DNA of 37,501 nt from Nemertoderma westbladi (Eukaryota > Animalia > Xenacoelomorpha), in assembly GCA_032718475.1 (NCBI GenBank), contig JAUCBJ010000898.1, forward strand, positions 1 to 37,501, given 5' to 3'. This document shows, piece by piece, positions 5,124 to 35,633 of this stretch (position 1 is the stretch's first letter; each line of letters opens with the position of its first letter). The translations under genes and the position numbers were made by a program. The notes below the pieces were generated by a model. It did no database searches. It saw nothing but the letters and a program-made list of their open reading frames with translations, and had not been told where the DNA came from.

Positions 5124-6301
5124 ATGATTAAATGTTACCAAAATAAAATAAAATTACTATCCAAAAACTTCGATAAAAAACAAAATAAAATGATAAAAAA
5201 AATAAAAATTGGGCACCAAGGCCGATCAGAATTCCGGAAAAAACGGCGTATAATTATTGCACTGGTTGTATTTGTGTTAGTGGCGATTGCAGCTGGTTTA
5301 ACAGGGTGGCTTCTGGGAAATCCTATCAAGGAGAATAGATTGGGGATACCAACATCGACAGTCCCAAATACTACCGGCATTGGAACTACTGGTTGGGAAG
5401 GAAACACTGGGAGTACAACTAGTTCTGAGTTAGCCACCACCGAGAGTACAGCTAGTACTGAGTTATCCACCACCGAGAGTTGGCCTACAGCTAGTACTGA
5501 GTTATCCTCCACCGAGAGTACAGCTAGTACTGAGTTATCCTCCACCGAGAGTACAGCTAGTACTGAGTTATCCACCACCGAGAGTACAGCTAGTACTGAG
5601 TTATCCACCACCGAGAGTACAGCTAGTACTGAGTTATCCACCACCGACACCGACATTACTATTGTCTCTACAGCAGTCACTTCAACAACAATCTCCATAG
5701 AGGACAAGTTTTATCACTCGTTTATTGAATGCATTGAGCTACAATGTGATCCCTACGCTCATTCCGATGTATGCGAAAAGGCTACACAATCCGGGACCCA
5801 ATATACCGTCGATACAGCTGATCCCATTAGTCCATCTACCGACGGCAATCAACTGAGATGCGACGGTGGCTGGATTATATTCTATAGTCGCATCGATAAC
5901 GTCATTGGCATCTGGGAAGACGTTACTTCTAATACTGTAGGTACGGCGGATTCGGAGATCCAAACGGATCTTACTTCCTAGGTGGTTTGACTAATATCCT
6001 TCGGCTGACTTACGGGAAGGATTGTTACGTAAAGGTCGACTTGGGTAACTCGACGAGACTCTATATTAACTTTACTATAGGGGGTAGTCCTTATTATAGC
6101 CTAAAGATAGCAAATTATGCCAATTCAGGTACTACTGGGACCGCTGCTACCGGTGTATTGGATAATGGAACATACGATCTAACGGTCCTGGATAACAAGA
6201 AGTTTGACTTCAGTAATGTATGTTGGACTAGTGGAACTCATCCAAATGAATGGGAACTGCAGAGGAAAACATTAGAGATGAAACTTAAATGCAAGTCGTG
6301 A
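5124..6301 (+). pseudogene. Type II membrane protein: signal anchor, Ser/Thr mucin-like stalk and divergent fibrinogen-related domain (FReD); one -1 frameshift near 5933 (pseudogene or sequence error)
   Basis: KKRR then hydrophobic IIIALVVFVLVAIAAGLTGWLL; TESTASTELST repeats; CDGGWIIF in the first frame; in the frame of ORF 5987-6301, from 5933: YCRYGGFGDPNGSYFLGGLTNILRLT..NFTIGGSPYYSLKI..EMKLK, matching the FReD motifs GGW, GFGD, F-LG-L--I--LT. Confidence 0.7.
5411..5648 (+). repeat. Coding 33-bp tandem repeat (about 7 units, 11-aa TESTASTELST)
   Basis: ACCGAGAGTACAGCTAGTACTGAGTTATCC(A/T)CC repeated; one unit carries an in-frame TGGCCT. Confidence 0.9.
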
Positions 6302-17940: not shown

Positions 17941-18494
17941 ATGTTGGCCGTCAGCCAGACAGATGGTAATGCGTGCGTTTCGAATGATTTCGAAGTACTT
18001 TGTCAATAAATATACCGGTAGGTATGCGGTATACAGGTAGGCCAGGCCTATATATATAAATAGAAATATATATATACAGCAGTACCGTACAGCGGAAGGA
18101 TCCATTGCTGCATTGTCATTTCAACATGTCATTAGGCTGTTAGTACTATAGTACAGGTAGGCCTACTGCATAAATTGTGTTCGGTGTTAGGCTGTTAGAC
18201 TTAGATGGATGGATGGTTAGGTGTTGTAATCAGGTAATGGTAACTCTGCGATCTGCTTCTGGCTTTTAGACCCACGCCAGTTTGCTATCTCATGTGCCGG
18301 TATCTCTGTATCTCCCTATCTCAGACCACGACACCGGCACCGGACACACGAACTCAACGCAACCTCCAGTGTTTCAGACCTTCGTACTGTCGTAGTCAGT
18401 GAGGTAGTCAACGCAGCAACGCGGCTCGCCTATCCCGGCACCTGCGACCTGCAGCGCAGTACCTACAGTCCATCACCACTTTCTGACCTTTATC

Positions 18495-19208
18495 ATGGAA
18501 TCTACGACCGGGAACGACTGGAACTCTGTCCCGTCAGCGAACTCCCAATCAAAGCGCTCTGCCTCGGTAGTGAGTAGCACATCGGGGATCCTCCGATGCG
18601 ACATGCTGCAACGAGCTGTCTGGGTCAAACTCAACGTGGGCGGCCAGACCTTCCTAACGACACGGCAGACGTTGTGTAAGGACACGCAATCCTTCCTGTA
18701 CCGACTGTGTCAGGAGGACAACGACCTGCCATCCGATAGAGACGAGAATGGGGCTTACCTCATCGACAGAGACCCTAAATATTTCAGCCCAGTCCTCAAC
18801 TTCCTTCGCCACGGGAAACTAATCTGCGACAAAGACGTTTCGCTTGAAGGTGTTCTTGCTGAGGCGGAGTTCTACAATTTATCGGAACTTATCGTGGTTA
18901 TAAAGGCTAAGTTAGACTTGGTGGCCCGGTCGGGGGGTCGCTCTTTGAAACACGTCTACCGGGTTATCCAATGCCAGGAGGAGGAGTTGACGCACGTTGT
19001 GTCCACCATGAGCGACGGTTGGCGGTTCGAGCAACTCATTAACATCGGGTCGCAGTACAACTATGGGAACGAAGATCAGTCGGAGTTCCTTTGCGTCGTC
19101 AGTCGCGAGTGTACCGGGACCAACGATTTCAACGGAGACGACGATAAAATATTCACGGATCGCGAACTTAAAGTCTTCTCGACTCATCAGGCGCCCAGTA
19201 GGAGGTAA
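18495..19208 (+). CDS. KCTD5: BTB/POZ (T1-type) protein of the KCTD2/KCTD5/KCTD17 (insomniac) family, Cullin-3 adaptor; single coding exon
   Basis: [53 protein letters not shown] and family-specific [54 protein letters not shown]; intact ORF; AATAAA at about 19628. Confidence 0.93.
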
Positions 19209-23427: not shown

Positions 23428-23860
23428 AAAAACCTGTACCTAAAGGTACAATGGGTACCCCTGTAAAGTCCTATATAAACTTTAATTTGTATCAAAACAC
23501 ATCGAATTTTTGTAGTCGGTCATTTGAATAGTTTTGAACACTAAATATCAATATGTAGAGCATTTCACCAATTGTCCGTCTGTCTGTTTGTCCGTCTGTC
23601 CGCTTCAAGCTATCTTACGAACGGTTGACCCGATTGCAAGAATTTTTTGTTGCCATGGGGCCACTAAGTACTAGTGATAAAAAAGGTAAATTGTTTATTC
23701 TCAGTTGCCATAGGAACGAGTTGCTATGAATCAGGGTTTAGACAAAACCCATACGAATAGCAGATTTTCAACTGAAAACCAGCCAGATCTGAGGTAAAAA
23801 TATAAATTGAGTACTGCCGCGCACATTCCCAACATCATCAATACTCATTACCATAACAAT
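23428..23860 (+). mobile_element. Non-autonomous repeat with GTCY microsatellite (Helentron/DINE-1-like), copy 1; may extend to about 24360
   Basis: GTCCGTCTGTCTGTTTGTCCGTCTGTCC at about 23575; whole segment is an inverted diverged match to 26678-27046. Confidence 0.55.
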
Positions 23861-24390
23861 AATCGTTGGAATTGCTGAATTTTAGAAAAAATTGTACATT
23901 TTTCGTTAGAAGCAGGAATGTGTAACAACTGAGAAGGTAAAATTGCTTTGAAAGAACACCAATAACATGAATTTAATCTACTGTTGGTATGTTACCAAGG
24001 AAACTAGCTGCGTTATATGTTCCATGCTTTACATTTCCGATCCCTTTCATTGTCCTTTATTCCAATGTCACCGACATCTGACCAGCTGTGAAAATTTTCT
24101 TCAAAACTCGTTCATATAAAATTACCAGATCGTATACAGTAGGCCTAGTACCACATAACAAGTTTCATTTTCGAACAGATATTCCGTGGATGGGTTGAGA
24201 ATTTTCGAAAACACGAAATGTCTTAAAACTGAACTCTAAGTATATACACCCACCAACGTATTCAGGGCGAAAATTTAGACTCCAGGGGTAATTTATCACG
24301 TAAACGAATTTATTCAGTCGAACCCCAAGTTGTCAACACGTCGTCGTAGCCCCAACTACTACTACTACTACTGTACTACTACAGTACTAC

Positions 24391-26677
24391 GAAAAGAGTA
24401 AGGGAAAGCTATGGACCTTTCAATAACCTAATGGAACCAAAGCACAACTGGATTACATCCTTATAAAAACAAAAAGTGGAGAAACCGCATGATCAACTGC
24501 GAGGCATACAGCTCGTTCAACCTAATTGGTTCGGACCACAGAATTGTGACTGCAGAGATCAGACTCAGTTTGAGAGCCAGCAAACCCAGGACAAGCAAGC
24601 AAATCAAATATGACTGGGAGAAACTCAGAACTGACAATGCTGTAAAGGATGCTTATACAGTAGAAGTTCAAAACCGCTTTGAAGCACTTCAGTCAATGGA
24701 TGAAGACCAATCCACCAATTCAATATACCAGAATATAATAACAGCCCACAAGGAATCAGCTAAGAGGCATATCCCCCAGAAACCCAAACGAAAACAGTAT
24801 GTGCCATGGCAAAACTCTGAGGTTACTTGTAAGAGAGAAGATCTTAAGAGAGCCTACAAAGTTAAAACCGAACAACCAACAACCGAAAACATTAACAAGG
24901 TTGAGACAGCTAAGGACGATTTTAAATTGTCCTACAACATCAGCCAGGAAAAGTACATACATGATAAAACTGAAGCAATTACAACTGCTCACATACAGCA
25001 ACAATCAAGACTTACCTGGCAAACTGTAAATGAGGTATCTGGTCGGAAAAGTTGTGCAAAGGGGCGCCTCAAAGCCGATAGTCCTGAAGAACGTGTTGGG
25101 AATGGAAAAATCACTTCAGCAACTTGCTTGGGCAGCCACCAAACATCGTGGTCAGCCCTACAAGGAAAATATATGACAAGACACTACCTATAGAAACAGG
25201 GGACTTCACACATGCCGAATTCCAAAGAAGCATTATGTCCAATAATAAAGCGAGTGGATTAGATGAAGTCCCAGCGGAGGTATGGAAAACCGGAGTGCTA
25301 AACAGACCATTATTGAATGTCTGCAACCGGATGTTAAAAGGGGAAAAGCCACCACCAATTTGGACTAAAGGTCAACTAAAGCCTCTCCCCAAGAAAGGTG
25401 ACCTCGGCATACCAACAAACTATCGTGGGATCTGTCTGCTTGTGGTAGCTGCCAAAATATACAATAAAATGATTCTATATAGGATTAGGCCACACATAGA
25501 GAAACTACTGCGTAAGAGCCAAAATGGATTTCGACCAAGTAGATCAACAATAGCTAAGATACTTGCACTACGGAGACTGATTGAAGGAATTAAGTCAAAG
25601 AATCTCCCCGCAGTCATGACTTTTGTGGACTTCAAGAAGGCATTTGACTCCATCCATAGAGGTAAAATGCTTGAAATCCTAAGAGCTTATGGAATACCAG
25701 AAGTGATTGTTGCTGGCATTGGATTGTTATATTGTGACACAGAAGCGCAGGTACTCTCACCAGATTGTGAAACTGAGTTTTTCTCAATCCTGGCTGGCGT
25801 ACTGCAAGGTGATACATTAGCACCATTACTATTTGTAATTGTGCTGGATTACGCAATGAGGACGGCCACAAAGGGTGAAGATCTGGGATTCACACTTCAA
25901 GAACGCAGAAGTAGTAGATATCCGGCAACTACAGTCACAGACACAGACTTTGCGGATGACATCGCCCTGCTCTCTAATACGCTAGCAGATGCACAGCTTC
26001 TGCTAAATAAAGTGGAGAGGGCTGCTAAGGAGGTTGGATTGCATATAAATGCTACAAAGACCGAATTTATGACCTTTAATGTTGATGAAAACTTGACAAC
26101 CATTGATAATAATCAACTAAGGAAGGTCGATGACTTCCAGTACCTTGGAGCATGGATAGAGAGTAGCAAAAAGGACATAGAAGTTAGGAAAGCAAAGGCT
26201 TGGGTAGCTCTATTAAAAATGGATACCATCTGGAATTCAGATCTCTCCAGGCACCTGAAGACTAAGTTCTTTCGAGCTACAGTGGAAATTGTATTTTTAT
26301 ACGGGGGTGAGACCTGGACACTGACTAAATCACTTGAACAACGAATTTATGGTTGCTACACAAGACTACTAAGGGCAGCCCTAAACATCAGCTGGAGACA
26401 ACACATGACAAAGCCGAGCTTTATGGTACAATACCACCTGTATCAACCACCCTCCGTGAACGCAGATTAAGATTCAGTGGGCACTGCTGGCGAAGTAAAA
26501 ACGAGGTCATACCAGATCTACTTCTCTGGCAACCAACTCATGGAAAGCGTAGTCGTGGACGACCTGCCATAACATATATAGATCAACTTGAAAGGGATAC
26601 TGAACTTGGGAGAAATGAAATTGCGACAACTATGGAGACTGTCCGAGTTTGCTCGACCTAGTAGTAGTAGTAGTAGT
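24391..26677 (+). mobile_element. 5'-truncated RTE-like LINE (end of APE, RT), two frameshifts, (TAG)n tail
   Basis: QLDYIL, IGSDHRIV; NYRGICL, QNGFRPSRST, FVDFKKAFDS, GVLQGDTLAP, DFADDIALL, RRLRFSGHCWR; frameshifts near 25100 and 26410; TAG repeats from 26660. Confidence 0.93.
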
Positions 26678-27046
26678 TGCTATTGTATCGGTGATTGACG
26701 ATGTTGAGAATTTGCAAGGCATTACTCAATATATTTTTTTACCTCGGATCATAGCAACCGGTTGCTTTGGCAACTGCGAATAAACAATGAACATAGTTTA
26801 TCACTAGGGAGGGGCCCGGCCCCATGGTGACTCATACAAAATATTGTGGCAATCGGTCCAGCCTTTCATGAGATACCTTGAAACGGACAGACGAACAAAC
26901 AGGCAAAAGGACATTTGTTGAATGCTCTATATATAGGTTGATTATTTAGTGTTTAAAACTATTCAAAAATCCGACTACAAAATTTCGATGTGTTTTGATG
27001 AAAATTTAAGTTTTTATAGCACTTTACATGGGCACAGGTTTTTTTT
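26678..27046 (-). mobile_element. Helentron/DINE-1-like repeat, copy 2 (inverted relative to 23428-23860)
   Basis: CCGACTACAAAATTTCGATGTGTTTTGAT is nearly the reverse complement of ATCAAAACACATCGAATTTTTGTAGTCGG; GGACAGACGAACAAACAGGC microsatellite. Confidence 0.55.
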
Positions 27047-27475: not shown

Positions 27476-28201
27476 GTACGCAGCTTTAATACCAAAACAC
27501 CAATTATTATTATATTATTGTCATGCCATGAAAAATATTATTATGAACATTATCAAAATTACACAGAAACACGACCATTATCAAAAATCATACATAAACA
27601 TGACCAGTATTAAATGTATATTACAAATGAATAACCAATACCAACAACACCATTAACTATTCATTATTTATTTAATTACTATTAATTATTATTAATTAAG
27701 CATTAACAACAACACCAACACCCCAACATCACCGAGTGAATACTAGATGTGGGCAATTCCACGGTGTCGGACGTTATGGATATTCTCGATTTTTGAATGT
27801 TTTTCTTTAAATTTACGAAAATACTTGAATTTTTGACATCAGATTGCGTTAAATAAATGAGACAAAATATTAATCTTTAAGAATATCGCAAATACTCTGT
27901 TTTGGGAAACGTTATTCTTCTTAAACAGTTGACTTTAAAAAGGTATCGGACGTTACAAAAATAGGATACATTTTAAAGTACATATTTTACTTTTGATTGC
28001 AATTAATGCCGAAGAATAATAATTAAATGCTTGAGTTAATACAATTATTTTATTCTTTAATTGTCAAGCTGAAGTAAAAACCTTACCGGTAGGTATGCCA
28101 GTACAGTACGATACAAATACTAAAATAAAAAAGCAACTGACCATTAGACGTTGCATGCAATCAGTAATCAGCTGACAGCCGTCAGCTGATTACTGATTGC
28201 A

Positions 28202-28522
28202 AACCGGGTATTGTACAAATTTAGGAATCGCGTAATTTTTCTTGAAATTAATATCTCATATCTCTCCAAACCACGTACGCGTTTCGACCTTACTTGGGTC
28301 TCATCAGCGTGGTGTCGGATTCGAACCTGGGACCTCGAGGTGGAAGCCGAGACTACAACCACTAGGCCACATGGTCTTGAGATATGGAGTATTAATTTCA
28401 AAGCCAGCTGCCATTTTATTAGCCCCTGATTTTTATTATTGATAGTAACAATGTGTTGGCAAGCTGTATTTTTCGAGGTATTTGTTATTATACATTTATT
28501 ATAGGAAGGGATCTAGGGGTCT
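28202..28522 (-). mobile_element. Retrozyme-like element, inverted partial copy spanning the monomer junction
   Basis: Reverse complement matches about 28942-28982 joined to 28571-28851 with few differences. Confidence 0.85.
28265..28319 (-). ncRNA. Minimal type I hammerhead ribozyme, copy A
   Basis: Minus strand ACCACG CTGATGA GACC-CAAGTAA-GGTC GAAA C GC GT A CGTGGT. Confidence 0.88.
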
Positions 28523-28677
28523 AGTATAACAAATATATATAACTCTATAACTCTATAGTCTCTATAACATATACCTCGAAAAATACAGCTTGCCAACACA
28601 TTGTTACTATATCAATAATAAAAATCAGGGGCTAATAAAATGGCAGCTGGCTTTGAAATTAATACTCCATATCTCAA

Positions 28678-28737
28678 GACCCTGTGGCCTAGTGGTTGTA
28701 GTCTCGGCTTCCACCTCGAGGTCCCAGGTTCGAATCC
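28678..28737 (+). promoter_or_regulatory. tRNA-like internal Pol III promoter directly upstream of the hammerhead (mirrored at about 28317-28376 on - strand)
   Basis: A box TGGCCTAGTGG (28685-28695), B box GGTTCGAATCC (28727-28737). Confidence 0.8.
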
Positions 28738-28788
28738 GAAACCACGCTGATGAGACCCAGTAAGGTCGAAACGCGTACGTGGTTTGGA
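28735..28788 (+). ncRNA. Minimal type I hammerhead ribozyme, copy B
   Basis: Stem I AAACCACG/CGTGGTTT, core CTGATGA 28747-28753, stem II GACC-CAGTAA-GGTC, GAAA 28768-28771, palindromic stem III ACGCGT, predicted GUA cleavage after 28777. Confidence 0.9.
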
Positions 28789-29668
28789 GTGATATGAGAT
28801 ATTAATTTCAAGAAAAATTACGCGATGCCTAAATTTGTACAATACAGGGTTAAAAAGTACGCATGAGATCGGATTAGTCCTACAATTGCGCACATAAAAG
28901 ATAAGTTATTTTCGGTAAACTAAACTTATCACTCGAGGTTAAGACCCCTAGATCCCTTCCTATAATAAATGTATAATAACAAATACCTCGAAAAATACAG
29001 CTTGCCAATACATTGTTACTATAAATAATAAAAATTTGGACCGTGCGGAACGTTACGTGTTGGACGTTACATAATAATTAGCAATATTTAGCCACCTCTC
29101 TCGGCTTTATTATTCATCTTTGGAATGAGATCTAGATATCATTAGAACCGCCTTCATCTGCAGATTCCGAATATGAAAACCATTTTAAATTTCACCAATA
29201 ATTGACAAACATATTATCAAAATACTAAGGTGTGAATTTTGAGTCGAAAATATCGTCTTTAATATGAATCACACTTTGAACATACTCGTTAGATTGAACC
29301 AATGTTGTACGAAATTGACCGACAATCAATTTGGTTTTAGTCCAGGACTGGGTACCGAGACTTGTATAAATATGTTGAATACCACACATATAAAATATTA
29401 TTATAAATATAAAGTTAAAGTTAAATAAAAGATCAAGTTACAGGATTATAACTCTAAATATTGTAAAGTTTTGCCCAATATCGTCGAAATGGTCCAATAA
29501 GTCACATTTTCATAGTTTTCTTCATCATCTGATCAAATATTCTAGTTGCATTTTCATATCTTTCTTTCTCCATTTTAGATGATGCTCGTGCAACTTTTAT
29601 AGATATTAATTCCTTCTCAAAAGTTTATTGACTCGGATTTCTCAACACATTATCCCCCATTTTCGGCA

Positions 29669-30187
29669 CTATTGTAATTTTCTTTGGAGTCCAATAATAT
29701 AACATATCATTACAGTAATTAAATAATTAACGGACACCATCCACAGAGGGTGGAGCGTGGGGATTCTACACAACCACATTGCAGAGTTCCCGCGCCACAA
29801 GGCGACAGAGAGCCGTTGGAAGAGGTGGCGAATGGCTTCTCCTGTAGGGATTCCTCGTCTGAGACCTTGCATTCTGGCAATCTCACGAATGGTGGAGGAT
29901 GAGTGAGAATCCCATCCACCTAGGGCTTCAACCACAAGTGGGGTGAAGCCTGTTCCGGAATTCCTGCACTCAACCAAGTGAGCAGCAAGCTTGCGGTCTC
30001 TGGCGATGGATTGGGCGTGGCCTGCATCAGCAGCAGCGCCATCTACAGTTCGGGCCTGCAGGGAGGAAATCACTGTGATATCTAGGGCCATTGGGTGACC
30101 ATGATGCCAATTCGGTAGGAAAATGTCGGCAGGGCGGCTGCGGGAACCTGGAATGAGGCCTGGCACAGGCAAAACCTGGCACTTCAC
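29669..30187 (-). mobile_element. 3' fragment of a non-LTR retrotransposon with a restriction-like endonuclease (CRE-like)
   Basis: RPADIFLPNW..MALDITV..FTPLVVEALGGW..LFQRLSVALWRGN; GC-rich island in AT-rich transposon DNA; possible GGCACT TSD (29665, 30178). Confidence 0.8.
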
Positions 30188-31699
30188 TCCGGGGCGCTAA
30201 TCCGAGTCGAAAATCGCAATTATTGAAACCTATTTTTATTTATTTATGTCTTTTATACTATACACTACAATTTAGACATTAAATAATAATAGTGTCGGAC
30301 GTTACAAGTGTCGGACGTTACAAACTTCATTTACTGAAATCACAGCCTTTGTGGTAGCCTGAATTGCTGTAAATGGCATAAGAGACGCCATCTTACGTCG
30401 GCATTGAGTTATTTGAATTTCGATATGGTTTGCCAAACAATAGAGAAGTAATTGAGAAAAATTGTGTCGGACGTTACATTTGGATACAGGTAGCTTGTAA
30501 TGCTTATTGTATGATAAGCGTTTTATGTTTATGTGGTAGAACTACCTCATTGGAATGTGCATTTACGGCAGATTTCAATGATACCAAGGATAGCCTATAT
30601 GGATAATAAGTAAAAAAATATTTCGCCTTGAATTTTGGTATTTTTTTTTTCGTTTTTACGAGTTTTATGTGTTTTCTTGATGATGGTCGTTATAATCGCA
30701 AAATTTCCTACTTTATACCCTCAAATCAATGTAAATTTTGTCAAATTCGAAAAATTTAGAAAATTTTAAAAAATAAATCATGACATATTGCTTATTTTTT
30801 AAAGATTTATTTTTTTCATATCGTGGCCCCTTTTCTCTGGAAATGCCCATGTCTCGCTACACGGACCTAAAAACATATTTCGTTTGAGCAGTAATTACTA
30901 ACTACTGCCCTACATATAAATATATGACTAATAATAAGAATGCAAAATGCTGCAAAAAATTCAGGAAAAACCGCGAGAAAAACCGCAAATGATTTTAGAG
31001 CAAAACAGAACAATCTTAACACATCATGCAACTAGTGAACTATTATTACTAACTATTATATTCTCGAACAAAAATAATAACTATTTGAACTCTGAAGTAC
31101 TGTAGTAGCTAAATAGGTAAACCAAGAATCATTAATTGTTTTATTTATTTGTATCACATGACATTAATTTCGCGCTACCAAATCGCCAGGGATACATATT
31201 TTCTAACTTTACATCGCAGTGCGACATTATTTCTCTGTATGTCCTTACGCCATACATTTTACTGTACTACTATGTATTTACACATTTTCCAGTATGTCAC
31301 CAGCGGCATTTTAAATACAGTATAATCAATCACATGACGTCATTCGAATATACACAATATCTATTTCACAATTCTAAAACTTACAAAAATGAAATTGGTG
31401 AAATCAAACCTCCAACGGGCTTTGCATTCATTACCCATGAAAGCTTTTAGTAAAAACATATATTCTGGAACAAATATTTTTGTTCTCGAACGAATTTTAT
31501 AAAAGCTTTAAAAAATGTTTTCATTAATGTGGTTGCATTATGTCACGGAAATTATGTTTTCTATGTTTTCTAGAACATTGTATGTTAAATGTATATTTAT
31601 AGCCAAGATTAATAGCTAAGACGCTTATAGCTGCGAAACTCCGAAACTTGAATAATATTTCAATAATTCAATATTTTTTTATATTTCATCCAGAGCTGT

Positions 31700-32771: not shown

Positions 32772-34797
32772 CCCTATTAGTACCGGGCTATAAAATGTTG
32801 TACAAATACAGGAGGGTGGTCATATTGACACCCTTCCCCTTCTAAAATCTACAAATTTTTACGAAAACGTCTGATTTTTTGTTTGTACGTAGATATCACT
32901 AGTCTGGATCCTACCTTTCTAATAAATGTAATGGGGTGGTTATATTGCAGCACCAAAATTACAAGTAGTGCATAATTTTCACAAAATTTGAAAGTTACAT
33001 TTTTCGGCTAATTGTTTTTCAATACAGGTTTTCTGGGGAGCAAAATACATTGGAGAATATTTAGAAATGATATAATTACTATAAATGGCTGTTTTGTTTA
33101 GTCCTCTATGCGTAGGAAAAATATGAAAAAAACAAGTAACCAGCACTTTTCAGTTAGATTACACAAAATTTTTTAATTCACTTATACGATGCTATAAATT
33201 AACATTTTCAGGTTTTCTAGGGCACTGATTCTAATGGAATACATTTCTAATATGTCAAATCATTGCTACTTGTATTTTTCGGCTTAATTTGGCAAATTTT
33301 GGTGCTACTGTAGCACCAAATTTCGTACCAATCACCAAAAATTACAAGTTTGCGATGTCCAGTGCTGTTTTTATTGATTCCATCGGATTCAGAACCATCA
33401 TAAACCCGTCTAACACAAGAAACAAAATGATACTATCACTGATAAATTTGCTTATTTTTCAAAAATGTGGTGCTGGCACAACAATTTTCACCCACCGGCG
33501 AAAAATACAACTTAGAAAACTCTTATGAAATTTTTACTGATTCCATTGAATTCAGAACCCTCACAAACCCGTATAACGCAAGAAACAAGGTGACACAATC
33601 AATTGATATATTTGATGATTTTCAAAATTTGGTGCTAGCACCACATTTTGCACCCAGTTCCGAAAAATACAAGTTTGATATATCTAGTTCGATAATTATG
33701 TATTCCATTGAATTCAGAACAGCCATAAACCTCTAAAACGCAAGAAATAAATTGTCATAAGCAATTTTATCTGGATAGTTGGAAATTAAGCACACAATCA
33801 AACACAACCAAACACACCCAAACACAATCAAACACAGTCCAAATGTTAACCAATTTTGTCAAACACAGTCCAAATCAGAAAGCCAAGGTAATTCTACGTC
33901 AGTTTGTATAAAAATTATTTTCAAAATGTCCGCACAATGCCACTATTATTGCCAATTTATATCTCAACGCACAGCTGGACTGGTTGCTAGGCACTAGTGA
34001 CGTTGGCCTTATATCCCCTGTACACTGATGTACATACAGTACAGCCTCTGGTAGAGGTAGGCAAGGCATAGGTATTTCAGTATTGCTATCACATACCGGC
34101 TGACCGGTAATTTGCGGTAATCGAAATTTGCAGTACTGCAGTAGCCCTAGCTGCCTAGCCCTACAGACAGACAGAATAGATTAGGCCTACTGGATTACGG
34201 GTACCATAACAAATAGCGGAATAAAATACAATGATTTAATGGATTTTCAAAATTTCGTGCTAGTACCAAAATTTGCACACAGCACCGAAAAATACAAGTT
34301 TGATACGCTTGGTGCAACTCGTATATATTTCATCGAAACCAGAACCCCAAAAAACCCCAATTGCGTAAAAAACAAGTTTCAAACAATCAATTTACAAAAT
34401 TTACATATTTCAAAATTTGGTGCTGGCACCAAAACTTTGCACCCGCTGAAAAAAACAAGTTTAAAATTTCTAAATTAAATTATATGAATTCCATCCAATT
34501 GCTAAAACCAAAAAACCAGTGTAAATCAAAAATAGAGATGTTACAAATCATATTTAATGAAATGAAATTTTCAAAAAACGTCTCAAAAAAGTGCCAAAAC
34601 TACGGTTAAAAACTGGTGCTATAACTCGAAAATTACCCAATATTTTTGAAAACGGTTTTCAATACTAGGAAGACAATAGATTTTTAGGAAAAGTATCAAA
34701 ATTTCAGATTCCCAACTGCGTTTGTTTCAGAATTATAAACAAAAAAACCACGGGGGGGGGGGTTCATATTGACCCCCCCCCCCCGGGTTTAATAGGG
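32772..34797. mobile_element. Non-autonomous piggyBac-like element (2026 bp) with internal repeats of about 165 bp
   Basis: TTAA-CCCTATTAGTACCGGG ... CCCGGGTTTAATAGGG-TTAA; subterminal TCATATTGAC at both ends; AAATTTGGTGCT-type motif at about 33294, 33463, 33625, 34250, 34413; no transposase ORF. Confidence 0.85.
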
Positions 34798-34913
34798 TTA
34801 ATCTCATGAACTTATGTTATTATTTTATTATTATTATATTATTTCATATCGTACATAATTTATTGTTTCCGTAACTCTTCGTCTCCTATAAAAACACCAT
34901 CAATAATTTGGTT

Positions 34914-35633
34914 ATGGCTGTATTTATCCATTCCTATCCAGACTGGGTTAGGCAAATGGAGGATTATATGGTGAAATGCGAAATGTTGATTAGTTGTTTT
35001 ATTTATGATATAAATGTAGTCACGCAAACTTTATGGACACAACTAAAGAGATTTAAATATGACTCAGCGTGGATGGAGCATGATAACTTCAAGAAAGCAT
35101 TAAACTTAAAAACGTTGAATGCAAATCACGAAATTTTTGCAAGTTTACCACATATCATCTCTGGAGAGCTGTCCTATTCAATTCCAAATATTGAAATTAC
35201 AGTTCCTGAAATTATATCTTATAAGTTAGATTATTATCCGACCCAGGAATTCTTGGATTCGCCTGACACCGTAAGAGAAACAGAGGAAAACTATCGAATG
35301 TATGGTTGCTGGGAAACCAACAGGGAAATGTATCCTCGTTTCATCCAATGGTACGAGGTATGGACCCTTAAAATGCTGCAAGCGAAACACCTGTACGAGA
35401 ACTACTTCCGCTGGGCAGTGAAGGAGGCCTATAGGAATACAGATATGCGAATAATTGAGTCTTATCTGTCTGCAGAGTTGAACAATGGCGATAGAGGTAG
35501 GTCTAAGGTCTGGGGTGCATGCTTACTACTAGGATCGGCATGCTGCATTGCAGCTGCATTTTTAAGAATGCTGTGCCGGCTTGTCAACAAAATTGCACCG
35601 CCACAACTCCCTATCACCCATGACATTTCCTAG
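34914..35633 (+). CDS. Hypothetical intronless protein; about 195 native codons, then read-through into the antisense LINE tail
   Basis: Long open frame in AT-rich DNA; TATAAAAA at 34887, 27 nt before ATG 34914; last about 45 codons overlap the LINE 3' end. Confidence 0.5.
   Translation: MAVFIHSYPDWVRQMEDYMVKCEMLISCFIYDINVVTQTLWTQLKRFKYDSAWMEHDNFKKALNLKTLNANHEIFASLPHIISGELSYSIPNIEITVPEIISYKLDYYPTQEFLDSPDTVRETEENYRMYGCWETNREMYPRFIQWYEVWTLKMLQAKHLYENYFRWAVKEAYRNTDMRIIESYLSAELNNGDRGRSKVWGACLLLGSACCIAAAFLRMLCRLVNKIAPPQLPITHDIS

What the first reader, a model, noticed from the sequence alone, without database searches (positions are those of the whole stretch)
28678..28811. tRNA-type Pol III promoter fused directly to a minimal hammerhead ribozyme
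Seen: A box TGGCCTAGTGG and perfect B box GGTTCGAATCC. The B box 3' end (TCC-G-AAACCACG) is also the 5' strand of hammerhead stem I, followed by an intact core (CUGAUGA, GAAA, GUA site after 28777). Both copies keep every core base. Established: type I hammerheads with a tiny palindromic stem III (here ACGCGT) occur in Penelope-like elements and animal retrozymes and can cleave as dimers; tRNA-related hammerhead repeats are known from schistosomes. Inference: a self-promoting, self-cleaving small retroelement (SINE/retrozyme hybrid). A transcript starting near 28678 would be cut to about 100 nt; a T4 run at 28909-28912 is a possible Pol III stop.
Basis: partly seen in the sequence, partly recalled or inferred. 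Interest (0 to 1): 0.9.

Follow-up and report, generated by a model that had tools for sequence, protein, structure and literature searches.

The report
tRNA-promoter hammerhead repeat, Penelope-type ends
This is one locus of a very abundant 411-base animal repeat that has a tRNA-type promoter sequence just before an intact hammerhead ribozyme motif and has Penelope-style inverted ends; it likely cuts its own RNA into unit lengths that a borrowed Penelope enzyme would copy back into the genome, and the promoter-plus-ribozyme design is already described in blood flukes.

Summary
A box, B box and a complete type I hammerhead lie at the stated coordinates in two copies, far above chance. The hammerhead is canonical, not 'minimal'. 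The 134 bases are not the element. They are the middle of a 411-bp unit of a very abundant, homogeneous animal repeat. Here it lies as 1.15 units (28564-29035) with an inverted, head-to-head copy (28522-28202). Other copies in public DNA runs end most often at one place, in a hairpin loop, and carry inverted 5' pieces with variable breakpoints, as Penelope-like elements (PLEs) do. Copies include sequence upstream of the tRNA start and beyond the T4 run, so the template is not a start-to-T4 transcript. Most likely this is a Pol III-driven retrozyme: tandem source loci give read-through RNA, the hammerhead cuts it to unit length, and a PLE enzyme copies it. Transcription, cleavage, circles and the partner enzyme are inferred, not shown. 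Promoter followed by hammerhead is known from schistosome Sm-alpha. This scan also noted similar tRNA-headed PLE-type repeats in other animals. Verdict: new member of a known kind, of moderate interest.

The parts
28564..29035 (+). Plus copy: 1.15 units of the 411-bp repeat (one unit plus about 60 bp repeated at the end)
   Evidence: 28564-28625 matches 28976-29035 at 94%; unit closes 29034->28626 with 2 letters between, 411 nt, in runs X4 and X3
28202..28522 (-). Inverted, head-to-head copy; starts at the equivalent of 28942, carries promoter and hammerhead, and is cut off at 28202
   Evidence: 7 mismatches in 286 aligned bases and 2 indels against the plus copy; 2 mismatches in 94 against 28942-29035
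28523..28563 (.). 41-bp filler at the inversion junction, made of short imperfect re-copies of element sequence (TATAAC-type)
   Evidence: sequence; other copies also have short extra letters at inversion joints (table 5c)
28678..28737 (+). Degenerate tRNA-derived head; position +1 is inferred from the A box being tRNA position 8. Predicted to fold as a rod, not a cloverleaf
   Evidence: ARAGORN tRNA-?(Gly|Trp) only at 80% threshold; fold
28685..28695 (+). Pol III type 2 A box
   Evidence: matches the consensus quoted in PMC8969392
28727..28737 (+). Pol III B box; its last three bases also pair in distal hammerhead stem I
28735..28788 (+). Canonical type I hammerhead; predicted cleavage after 28777 (GUA); stem III is the palindrome ACGCGT
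   Evidence: the minimum-energy fold of two copies is the double hammerhead, -43.3 kcal/mol
28652..28676 (+). 5' strand of a long closing stem; lies upstream of the tRNA start
   Evidence: pairs with 28789-28812; pair probability 0.94-0.95 in both copies
28789..28812 (+). 3' strand of the closing stem; lies just downstream of the hammerhead
28586..28649 (+). Hairpin whose A-rich apical loop (28609-28626) holds the family's commonest 3' end; candidate internal start site of reverse transcription
   Evidence: fold; loose-end cluster at 28434/28435, equal to 29029/29030 and 28619/28620
28909..28912 (+). Only T4 run on the sense strand of the unit; possible leaky Pol III stop
   Evidence: kept in the X3 contig; T4 scarcity is not significant
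28942..29035 (+). Terminal segment that is typically duplicated (pseudo-LTR-like)
   Evidence: depth is higher at 28938-28989 in X1; 7 of 13 shown inversion joints restart at 28921-28955
28359..28369 (-). A box of the inverted copy
28317..28327 (-). B box of the inverted copy
28265..28319 (-). Hammerhead of the inverted copy; core intact, one extra A in loop II

Best explanation
This locus holds 1.15 units plus an inverted copy of an abundant, non-coding 411-bp repeat with Pol III-type boxes directly before an intact type I hammerhead motif, and it is likely a Pol III-driven retrozyme that a Penelope-type reverse transcriptase/endonuclease would copy in trans. Steps: (1, inferred) at tandem source loci Pol III starts at the tRNA head and reads through the single T4 into the next unit. 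(2, predicted) Two hammerheads pair through ACGCGU and cut after GUA, dropping a 100-nt leader and releasing a 411-nt monomer whose promoter now lies near its 3' end. (3, inferred from published retrozymes) The closing stem and stem I hold the ends together and a host ligase circularises the monomer. (4, inferred) A PLE protein nicks AT-rich DNA, starts internally in the hairpin loop (29029 equivalent) and copies a little more than one turn. (5, shown in DNA) The products have a preferred 3' end, a short terminal duplication and often an inverted 5' piece. Copies under about 1.9 units, including this one, would be dead ends.
For: Motifs are intact and non-random. The family is abundant and homogeneous: depth 4-9e5 over 28652-29015 in X1 and 1.7-4.6e5 in X4, against 0-365 at 29250-29400; the tool warns this is no copy number, and 'thousands of copies' is my inference. 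The unit closes on itself at 411 nt in DNA run X4, and X1 has a like joint. 3' ends cluster at 28434/28435 (X1 7+17 contigs, X4 9) with unrelated AT-rich flanks (18 of 534 rows shown), and this site is a hairpin loop. There are 13 distinct head-to-head inversion joints with variable breakpoints (7 of 15 rows shown in table 5, 10 of 12 shown in table 5c). PMC8557442 gives partial tandem plus inverted 5' copy as PLE hallmarks; PMC11167929 shows internal RT start in a stem loop and AT-rich targets for a PLE. The closing stem needs sequence upstream of the tRNA start: 0 of 2000 shuffled partners paired as well in either copy (strands picked after seeing the fold). The dimer folds as a double hammerhead. 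The promoter-then-hammerhead logic, with only tandems propagating, is described for Sm-alpha.
Against: No autonomous PLE partner was found: none of 20 window ORFs hit GIY-YIG, the RTs present were not classified beyond RVT_1, and the genome is not held. Tandem loci with two hammerheads were not resolved, because the contigs are short. The terminal duplication here excludes the hammerhead, whereas PLE pLTRs usually contain it. The T4 run must be read through, and T4 depletion is not significant (P 0.54-0.69). The whole circular unit does not fold better than shuffles (z -1.5, 7 of 100 as good, on the diverged plus copy). The effect of the closing stem on hammerhead folding is opposite in the two copies. 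A second 3'-end cluster lies about 60 nt away (28967-69, X4), not the 30-40 nt of published tails, and two tail-to-tail joints also occur. Eight of nine Xenopus retrozyme dimers did not cleave in vitro, and in one PLE cleavage was not needed for insertion.
Confidence: 0.6

Rival explanations
1. A PLE-mobilised retrozyme whose RNA comes from Pol II or other read-through transcription. The tRNA-derived boxes are a captured relic kept as an RNA rod, or give only short by-product RNAs.
For: T4 lies inside the unit. The tRNA head is predicted to fold as a rod that pairs the A box and part of the B box. A review states that metazoan retrozymes seem to lack promoters and rely on read-through (PMC7761336).
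Against: Both boxes are perfect and 31 bp apart. No variant at 5% or more was listed inside them (table 3, all rows shown), while the tRNA's acceptor and D stems have decayed. Sm-alpha is reported as Pol III-transcribed.
Confidence: 0.2
2. One reading: each copy makes a Pol III RNA from 28678 to T4, cut to about 100 + 135 nt, and is spread by a LINE such as the RTE- or CR1-like elements in the window.
For: Promoter geometry; hammerhead stems I and II form with probability 0.91 and 0.99 in a nascent +1 to 28790 transcript; LINE RT fragments are common in the window. Such short RNAs may well be by-products.
Against: The A box lies 121 and 153 bp inside the two copies, not 10-15 bp from the 5' end. 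Family depth covers sequence upstream of +1 and downstream of T4. The commonest 3' end is internal unit sequence about 120 nt past T4.
Confidence: 0.08
3. A DNA-level repeat (satellite, foldback or MITE-like) amplified by recombination or replication slippage, with promoter and hammerhead as passengers from an old retro-event.
For: Large inverted repeat at this locus and 25-bp inverted repeats around the promoter/hammerhead. Li et al. discuss local tandem expansion after seeding by PLE ends. A core-dead variant is itself amplified in X5 (contig depth 401, changes at G5, A13 and U16.1).
Against: A preferred 3' end with many unrelated flanks, and variable 5' inversion points with filler letters, fit priming and reverse transcription. 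G5 is changed in only 0.5% (X1) and 0.4% (X4) of depth.
Confidence: 0.12

Closest known systems
Sm-alpha / Sj-alpha SINE-like hammerhead repeats of Schistosoma (PMC6765202 and PMC2770079, passages seen; the primary papers Ferbeyre 1998 and Laha 2000 were not seen)
   Same: Pol III promoter followed by a hammerhead; after cleavage the promoter sits at the 3' end of the monomer, so only tandem copies propagate; more than 10,000 copies; tRNA-related.
   Different: Sequence homology to Sm-alpha was not tested. Sm-alpha-like hits were tRNA-Gln-derived; this head is called Gly/Trp at low threshold. PLE-type inverted ends are not mentioned for Sm-alpha in the passages seen. The host phylum here is unresolved.
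Metazoan non-LTR retrozymes (PMC7229834, passages and parts 2 and 4 of 6; bioRxiv 10.64898/2026.07.22.740005, parts 1-3 of 5; PMC7761336, passages)
   Same: 150-450-bp non-coding unit, canonical type I hammerhead, GC under 50% (39% here), PLEs proposed as the mobiliser.
   Different: They are described as apparently promoterless; this one has intact A and B boxes. This locus is not a tandem of two hammerheads. RNA circles and cleavage are not shown here.
Penelope-like elements and their non-autonomous derivatives (PMC8557442, passages; PMC4209133, parts 1-2 of 4; PMC11167929, parts 1-2 of 4)
   Same: Partial tandem (pseudo-LTR), inverted 5' copy, 3' end in a stem loop, AT-rich flanks, hammerhead with a palindromic helix III.
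   Different: No ORF; the hammerhead lies outside the duplicated end in this copy; tRNA-type promoter; partner element not identified; the two 3'-end clusters are about 60 nt apart, not 30-40.
Cassandra/Helenus/Ajax, Pol III-type small-RNA-bearing non-autonomous LTR elements (PMC10886601, search listing and passages)
   Same: A non-autonomous element carries a small-RNA-derived sequence inside a repeated unit rather than at a SINE-like 5' end.
   Different: Those are LTR-type; this element has PLE-type ends and a hammerhead.

Membership tests
Metazoan non-LTR retrozyme | Type I hammerhead with intact core | tested here: met
   core kept in the family majority
Metazoan non-LTR retrozyme | Short (150-450 bp), low-GC, non-coding repeated unit | tested here: met
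   411 nt; 39% GC; the one stop-to-stop frame of 110 aa or more over it has no Pfam hit
Metazoan non-LTR retrozyme | [quoted passage not shown] | tested here: inconclusive
   Not met at this locus (1.15 units). The unit junction exists in DNA runs, but short contigs cannot show full dimers
Metazoan non-LTR retrozyme | Self-cleavage and expression as unit-length linear and circular RNA | not testable with these tools
   Needs bench work or raw RNA reads; only folds were computed
Sm-alpha-like Pol III hammerhead repeat | tRNA-type A and B boxes immediately before the hammerhead | tested here: met
Sm-alpha-like Pol III hammerhead repeat | Pol III transcription into multimeric RNA | not testable with these tools
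   Sequence only; the internal T4 is a caveat
Sm-alpha family proper | Sequence homology to Sm-alpha in a schistosome host | not tested
Not filed as Sm-alpha itself
Non-autonomous Penelope-like element | Partial tandem forming a pseudo-LTR | tested here: met
Non-autonomous Penelope-like element | Inverted 5' copy next to the 5' end | tested here: met
   This locus, and 13 distinct joints among the rows shown
Non-autonomous Penelope-like element | Optional 30-40-bp tail between two RT start sites | tested here: inconclusive
   Clusters at 29029 and 28967-69, about 60 nt apart; tables truncated
Non-autonomous Penelope-like element | Hammerhead inside the duplicated pLTR | tested here: not met
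   The duplicated part 28942-29035 excludes the hammerhead. The claim is therefore 'works like a PLE passenger', not 'is a PLE pLTR'
Non-autonomous Penelope-like element | Homology to the terminus of an autonomous PLE of the host | not testable with these tools
   No genome held; no GIY-YIG hit in 20 window ORFs
Classical tRNA-SINE | Promoter 10-15 nt from the 5' end | tested here: not met
   A box is 121 and 153 bp inside the copies
Classical tRNA-SINE | Target-site duplication | tested here: inconclusive
   The left end is cut off at 28202 by another repeat; no duplication visible

The most novel reading that the evidence does not exclude
This is a 'Penelope SINE': a Pol III-promoted, self-cleaving, circular-RNA retroelement mobilised by PLE machinery. 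It arose independently of schistosome Sm-alpha. Together with the similar ~400-bp tRNA-headed repeats noted by this scan in other animals, it forms a widespread, uncatalogued class in which a tRNA promoter solves the promoter problem of retrozymes and a hairpin loop is the PLE internal priming site.
Probability: 0.4. Interest if true: 0.65.

Novelty: new member of a known kind. Interest (0 to 1): 0.42.

Why it matters
How animal retrozymes are transcribed and what mobilises them is open. One review says they seem promoterless, and PLEs are the proposed but unproven partner. This family has a textbook Pol III promoter, one hammerhead, a defined 3' end in a hairpin loop and PLE-type inverted junctions in 411 bp, with very many near-identical copies. 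It gives sharp tests: RNA ends at 28777/28778, a circle junction, T4 read-through, source loci of about 1.9 units or more, and use by the host PLE protein. It also suggests that Sm-alpha is not a schistosome oddity. The design itself is not new.

Tried and rejected
Whole genome: not held, so no copy census, no source loci and no partner search. Expression: no RNA holder listed. X3 is only guessed to be RNA, is labelled as another organism, and its single 441-nt contig (411+30, a closed cycle) could equally come from trace DNA of a high-copy repeat; it is used only for unit length and sequence. B box + hammerhead pattern scans gave 8 hits in metagenome contigs and 1 in viral contigs. None resembles the element beyond short words. 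L002, L005, L006 and L009 are tRNA loci; Rfam finds a hammerhead only in L009. Genome contigs was not scanned. T4 depletion: not significant. Whole-circle fold: not significant. The idea that the closing stem helps the hammerhead fold held for the plus copy (0.17 to 0.91) and reversed for the minus copy (0.37 to 0.13), so it was dropped. The plus copy's differences from the family mostly avoid the promoter/ribozyme block (1 of 14 listed positions in 99 of 409 bp); this is too few to count. Host placement with the KCTD5-like ORF failed: identities to named vertebrates, echinoderms, molluscs and arthropods overlap (about 50-73%), so 'animal' only. Pfam scan: 20 of the 31 ORFs were scanned. Ferbeyre 1998, Lunse 2017 and Rojas 2000 were not held. 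No earlier scan notes by sequence or place.

Full report
Observation. The A box (28685-95), the B box (28727-37) and a complete type I hammerhead (28735-88, cut predicted after 28777) are present, and again on the minus strand. The promoter pattern occurred in 0 of 100 shuffles, and the composite with the hammerhead in 0 of 2000. Rfam matches both hammerheads only below gathering scores. The helix sizes fit the canonical metazoan type I form with a palindromic helix III (PMC4209133, parts 1-2 of 4 read). Two copies of the motif fold at minimum energy into the double hammerhead. The tRNA origin rests on the boxes and on a low-threshold ARAGORN call, tRNA-?(Gly|Trp); default ARAGORN and Rfam are negative.

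Anatomy of the locus. The two copies form a large inverted repeat. The plus copy runs 28564-29035: one unit plus about 60 bp repeated. The minus copy starts at 28522, which equals position 28942 of the plus copy, and reads leftwards to 28202, where another repeat begins. The copies are head-to-head, with 41 bp of slipped filler between them. They differ at 7 of 286 aligned bases and two indels. They share three letters (28680, 28842 and 28984 equivalents) where about 98% or more of family depth has another letter, so they likely come from one insertion event.

The family. One search listed 7 runs, 6 of which hold at least part of the stretch, in 4 studies; I laid 4 of them twice. Depth over the unit is 4-9e5 in X1, 1.7-4.6e5 in X4 and 1-8e3 in X5, against 0-365 at 29250-29400. 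The tool warns that this is no copy number; thousands of copies in X1 and X4 is my inference, and X1 may be the source of the window. The unit closes 29034->28626 with two letters between, 411 nt, in X4 and X3, with a like joint in X1. The plus copy differs from the majority at 14 listed positions, none in the boxes or core (40 of 130 rows shown). G5 is changed in 0.5% (X1), 0.4% (X4) and 18% (X5) of depth; the X5 figure is one contig with three core changes. At the 5% level no variant inside either box was listed.

Ends and junctions. The largest loose-end clusters of the element lie at 28434/28435 (X1 7+17 contigs, X4 9), equal to 29029/29030, with unrelated AT-rich flanks (18 of 534 rows shown; for the mapping). 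The plus copy ends there too. This site is the apical loop of hairpin 28586-28649. A second cluster lies at 28967-69 in X4, and smaller ones at 28795, 28813 and 29020. Thirteen distinct head-to-head inversion joints appear among the rows shown (7 of 15 in table 5, 10 of 12 in table 5c; 52 and 29 rows hidden). Seven of them restart at 28921-28955, several carry only a 20-35-bp inverted 3' end, and most have filler letters. Two tail-to-tail joints also occur. Partial tandems, inverted 5' copies and tails are the PLE hallmarks (PMC8557442, passages; PMC8969392, passages). A purified PLE protein cuts AT-rich DNA and starts reverse transcription internally in a stem loop (PMC11167929, parts 1-2 of 4).

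Mechanism. Copies include the 52 bp upstream of the tRNA start and about 120 bp beyond T4, so the template cannot be a start-to-T4 RNA. A long stem pairs 28652-76, upstream of the start, with 28789-812 (probability 0.94-0.95 in both copies; 0 of 2000 shuffled partners as good, with strands chosen after seeing the fold). It can form only in read-through, unit-length or circular RNA. The 170-nt domain folds at z -4.8 and -3.9. The simplest model follows Sm-alpha and published retrozymes. Pol III starts in one unit of a tandem locus and reads through T4. Paired hammerheads release a 411-nt monomer, a host ligase closes it (RtcB in vitro in PMC7229834), and a PLE protein copies a little more than one turn from the hairpin loop. 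To be a source, a new copy must reach back 763 nt, 1.86 units; this locus has 1.15. Shown: motifs, unit length, abundance, ends, inversions. Predicted: folds and the dimer. Inferred: Pol III use, read-through, cleavage, circles and the PLE partner.

Results against this reading. No PLE partner was found among 20 of 31 window ORFs scanned, and no genome is held. Tandem source loci are not resolved. The duplicated end excludes the hammerhead. T4 depletion and the whole-circle fold are not significant. The closing stem helps hammerhead folding in one copy and hinders it in the other. Eight of nine Xenopus retrozyme dimers did not cleave in vitro, and cleavage was dispensable for insertion by one PLE.

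Comparison and novelty. A promoter followed by a hammerhead, with only tandems propagating, is described for schistosome Sm-alpha (PMC6765202 and PMC2770079, passages; primary papers not seen). Animal retrozymes as non-autonomous PLE derivatives are in print (PMC7229834; bioRxiv 10.64898/2026.07.22.740005, parts 1-3 of 5; its supplements were not seen and may list such families). PMC7761336 (passages) says retrozymes seem promoterless. PMC5680766, PMC10886601 and PMC6309819 (passages) added nothing on this point. I found no paper describing a Pol III-boxed retrozyme with PLE-type ends in searches (0 papers; 2; 2; 13; 3; 6; 1; 0). Most listed papers were seen as listings only, subscription papers are missing, and Dfam and Repbase could not be searched. 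This scan's own unchecked notes describe four similar tRNA-headed repeats in other genomes; they are leads, not support. The host is an animal of unresolved phylum. Verdict: real, a new member of a known kind, interest 0.42. The bolder reading, a widespread PLE-dependent SINE class, has probability about 0.4.

Noticed in passing
L009:949-1277 (IMGVR_UViG_3300001605_000031): Viral tRNA cluster with hammerhead motifs between tRNAs. One core starts directly behind the tRNA at 949-1022, with stem I apparently overlapping the tRNA 3' end (read by eye; fold z -1.4). A second is a weak Rfam Hammerhead_1 match at 1224-1277 (26 bits, below gathering). A GOLLD-like RNA lies at 1666-1992. Hammerheads in phage tRNA clusters are known, from recall only.
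   Followed up: partly
window 28134-28201: Near-perfect 46-bp hairpin (28156-28201) abutting the cut end of the inverted copy. It is part of another multi-copy repeat (depth 1.5-3e4 in X1); the weak MIR6217 match is likely chance.
   Followed up: partly
window 29081-29251: Another, older multi-copy repeat of about 170 bp with defined ends (loose-end clusters at 29081 and 29251).
   Followed up: no
window 23455-27035: LINE with a 460-aa RT frame (25088-26470, RVT_1; RTE-like by recall) lying between inverted repeats 23455-23729 and 26749-27035, likely a LINE inserted in a TIR element.
   Followed up: no
window 18408-19208 +: KCTD5/KCTD2-like BTB protein encoded in one uninterrupted frame; possibly an intronless gene or a retrocopy.
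   Followed up: partly
window 5124-6301 +: Two overlapping frames: a predicted membrane anchor, a Ser/Thr-rich stalk from a 33-bp tandem repeat, and a weak fibrinogen C-terminal match (E 0.0025, below cut-off).
   Followed up: no
window 29669-30196 -: 175-aa frame that resembles the restriction-like endonuclease end of R2/CRE-type retroelements (recalled motif; no Pfam hit).
   Followed up: no
window 33294-34455: 162-bp tandem and dispersed repeat with palindromic cores.
   Followed up: no
window 34875-35633 + and 214-645 -: Open frames of 252 and 143 aa with no Pfam hit.
   Followed up: no
run X5, contig matching window 28243-28352: A core-dead variant of the hammerhead repeat is itself amplified (contig depth 401) in one data set where the family is far less deep than in X1 and X4; this may be a different population or species under one label.
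   Followed up: partly
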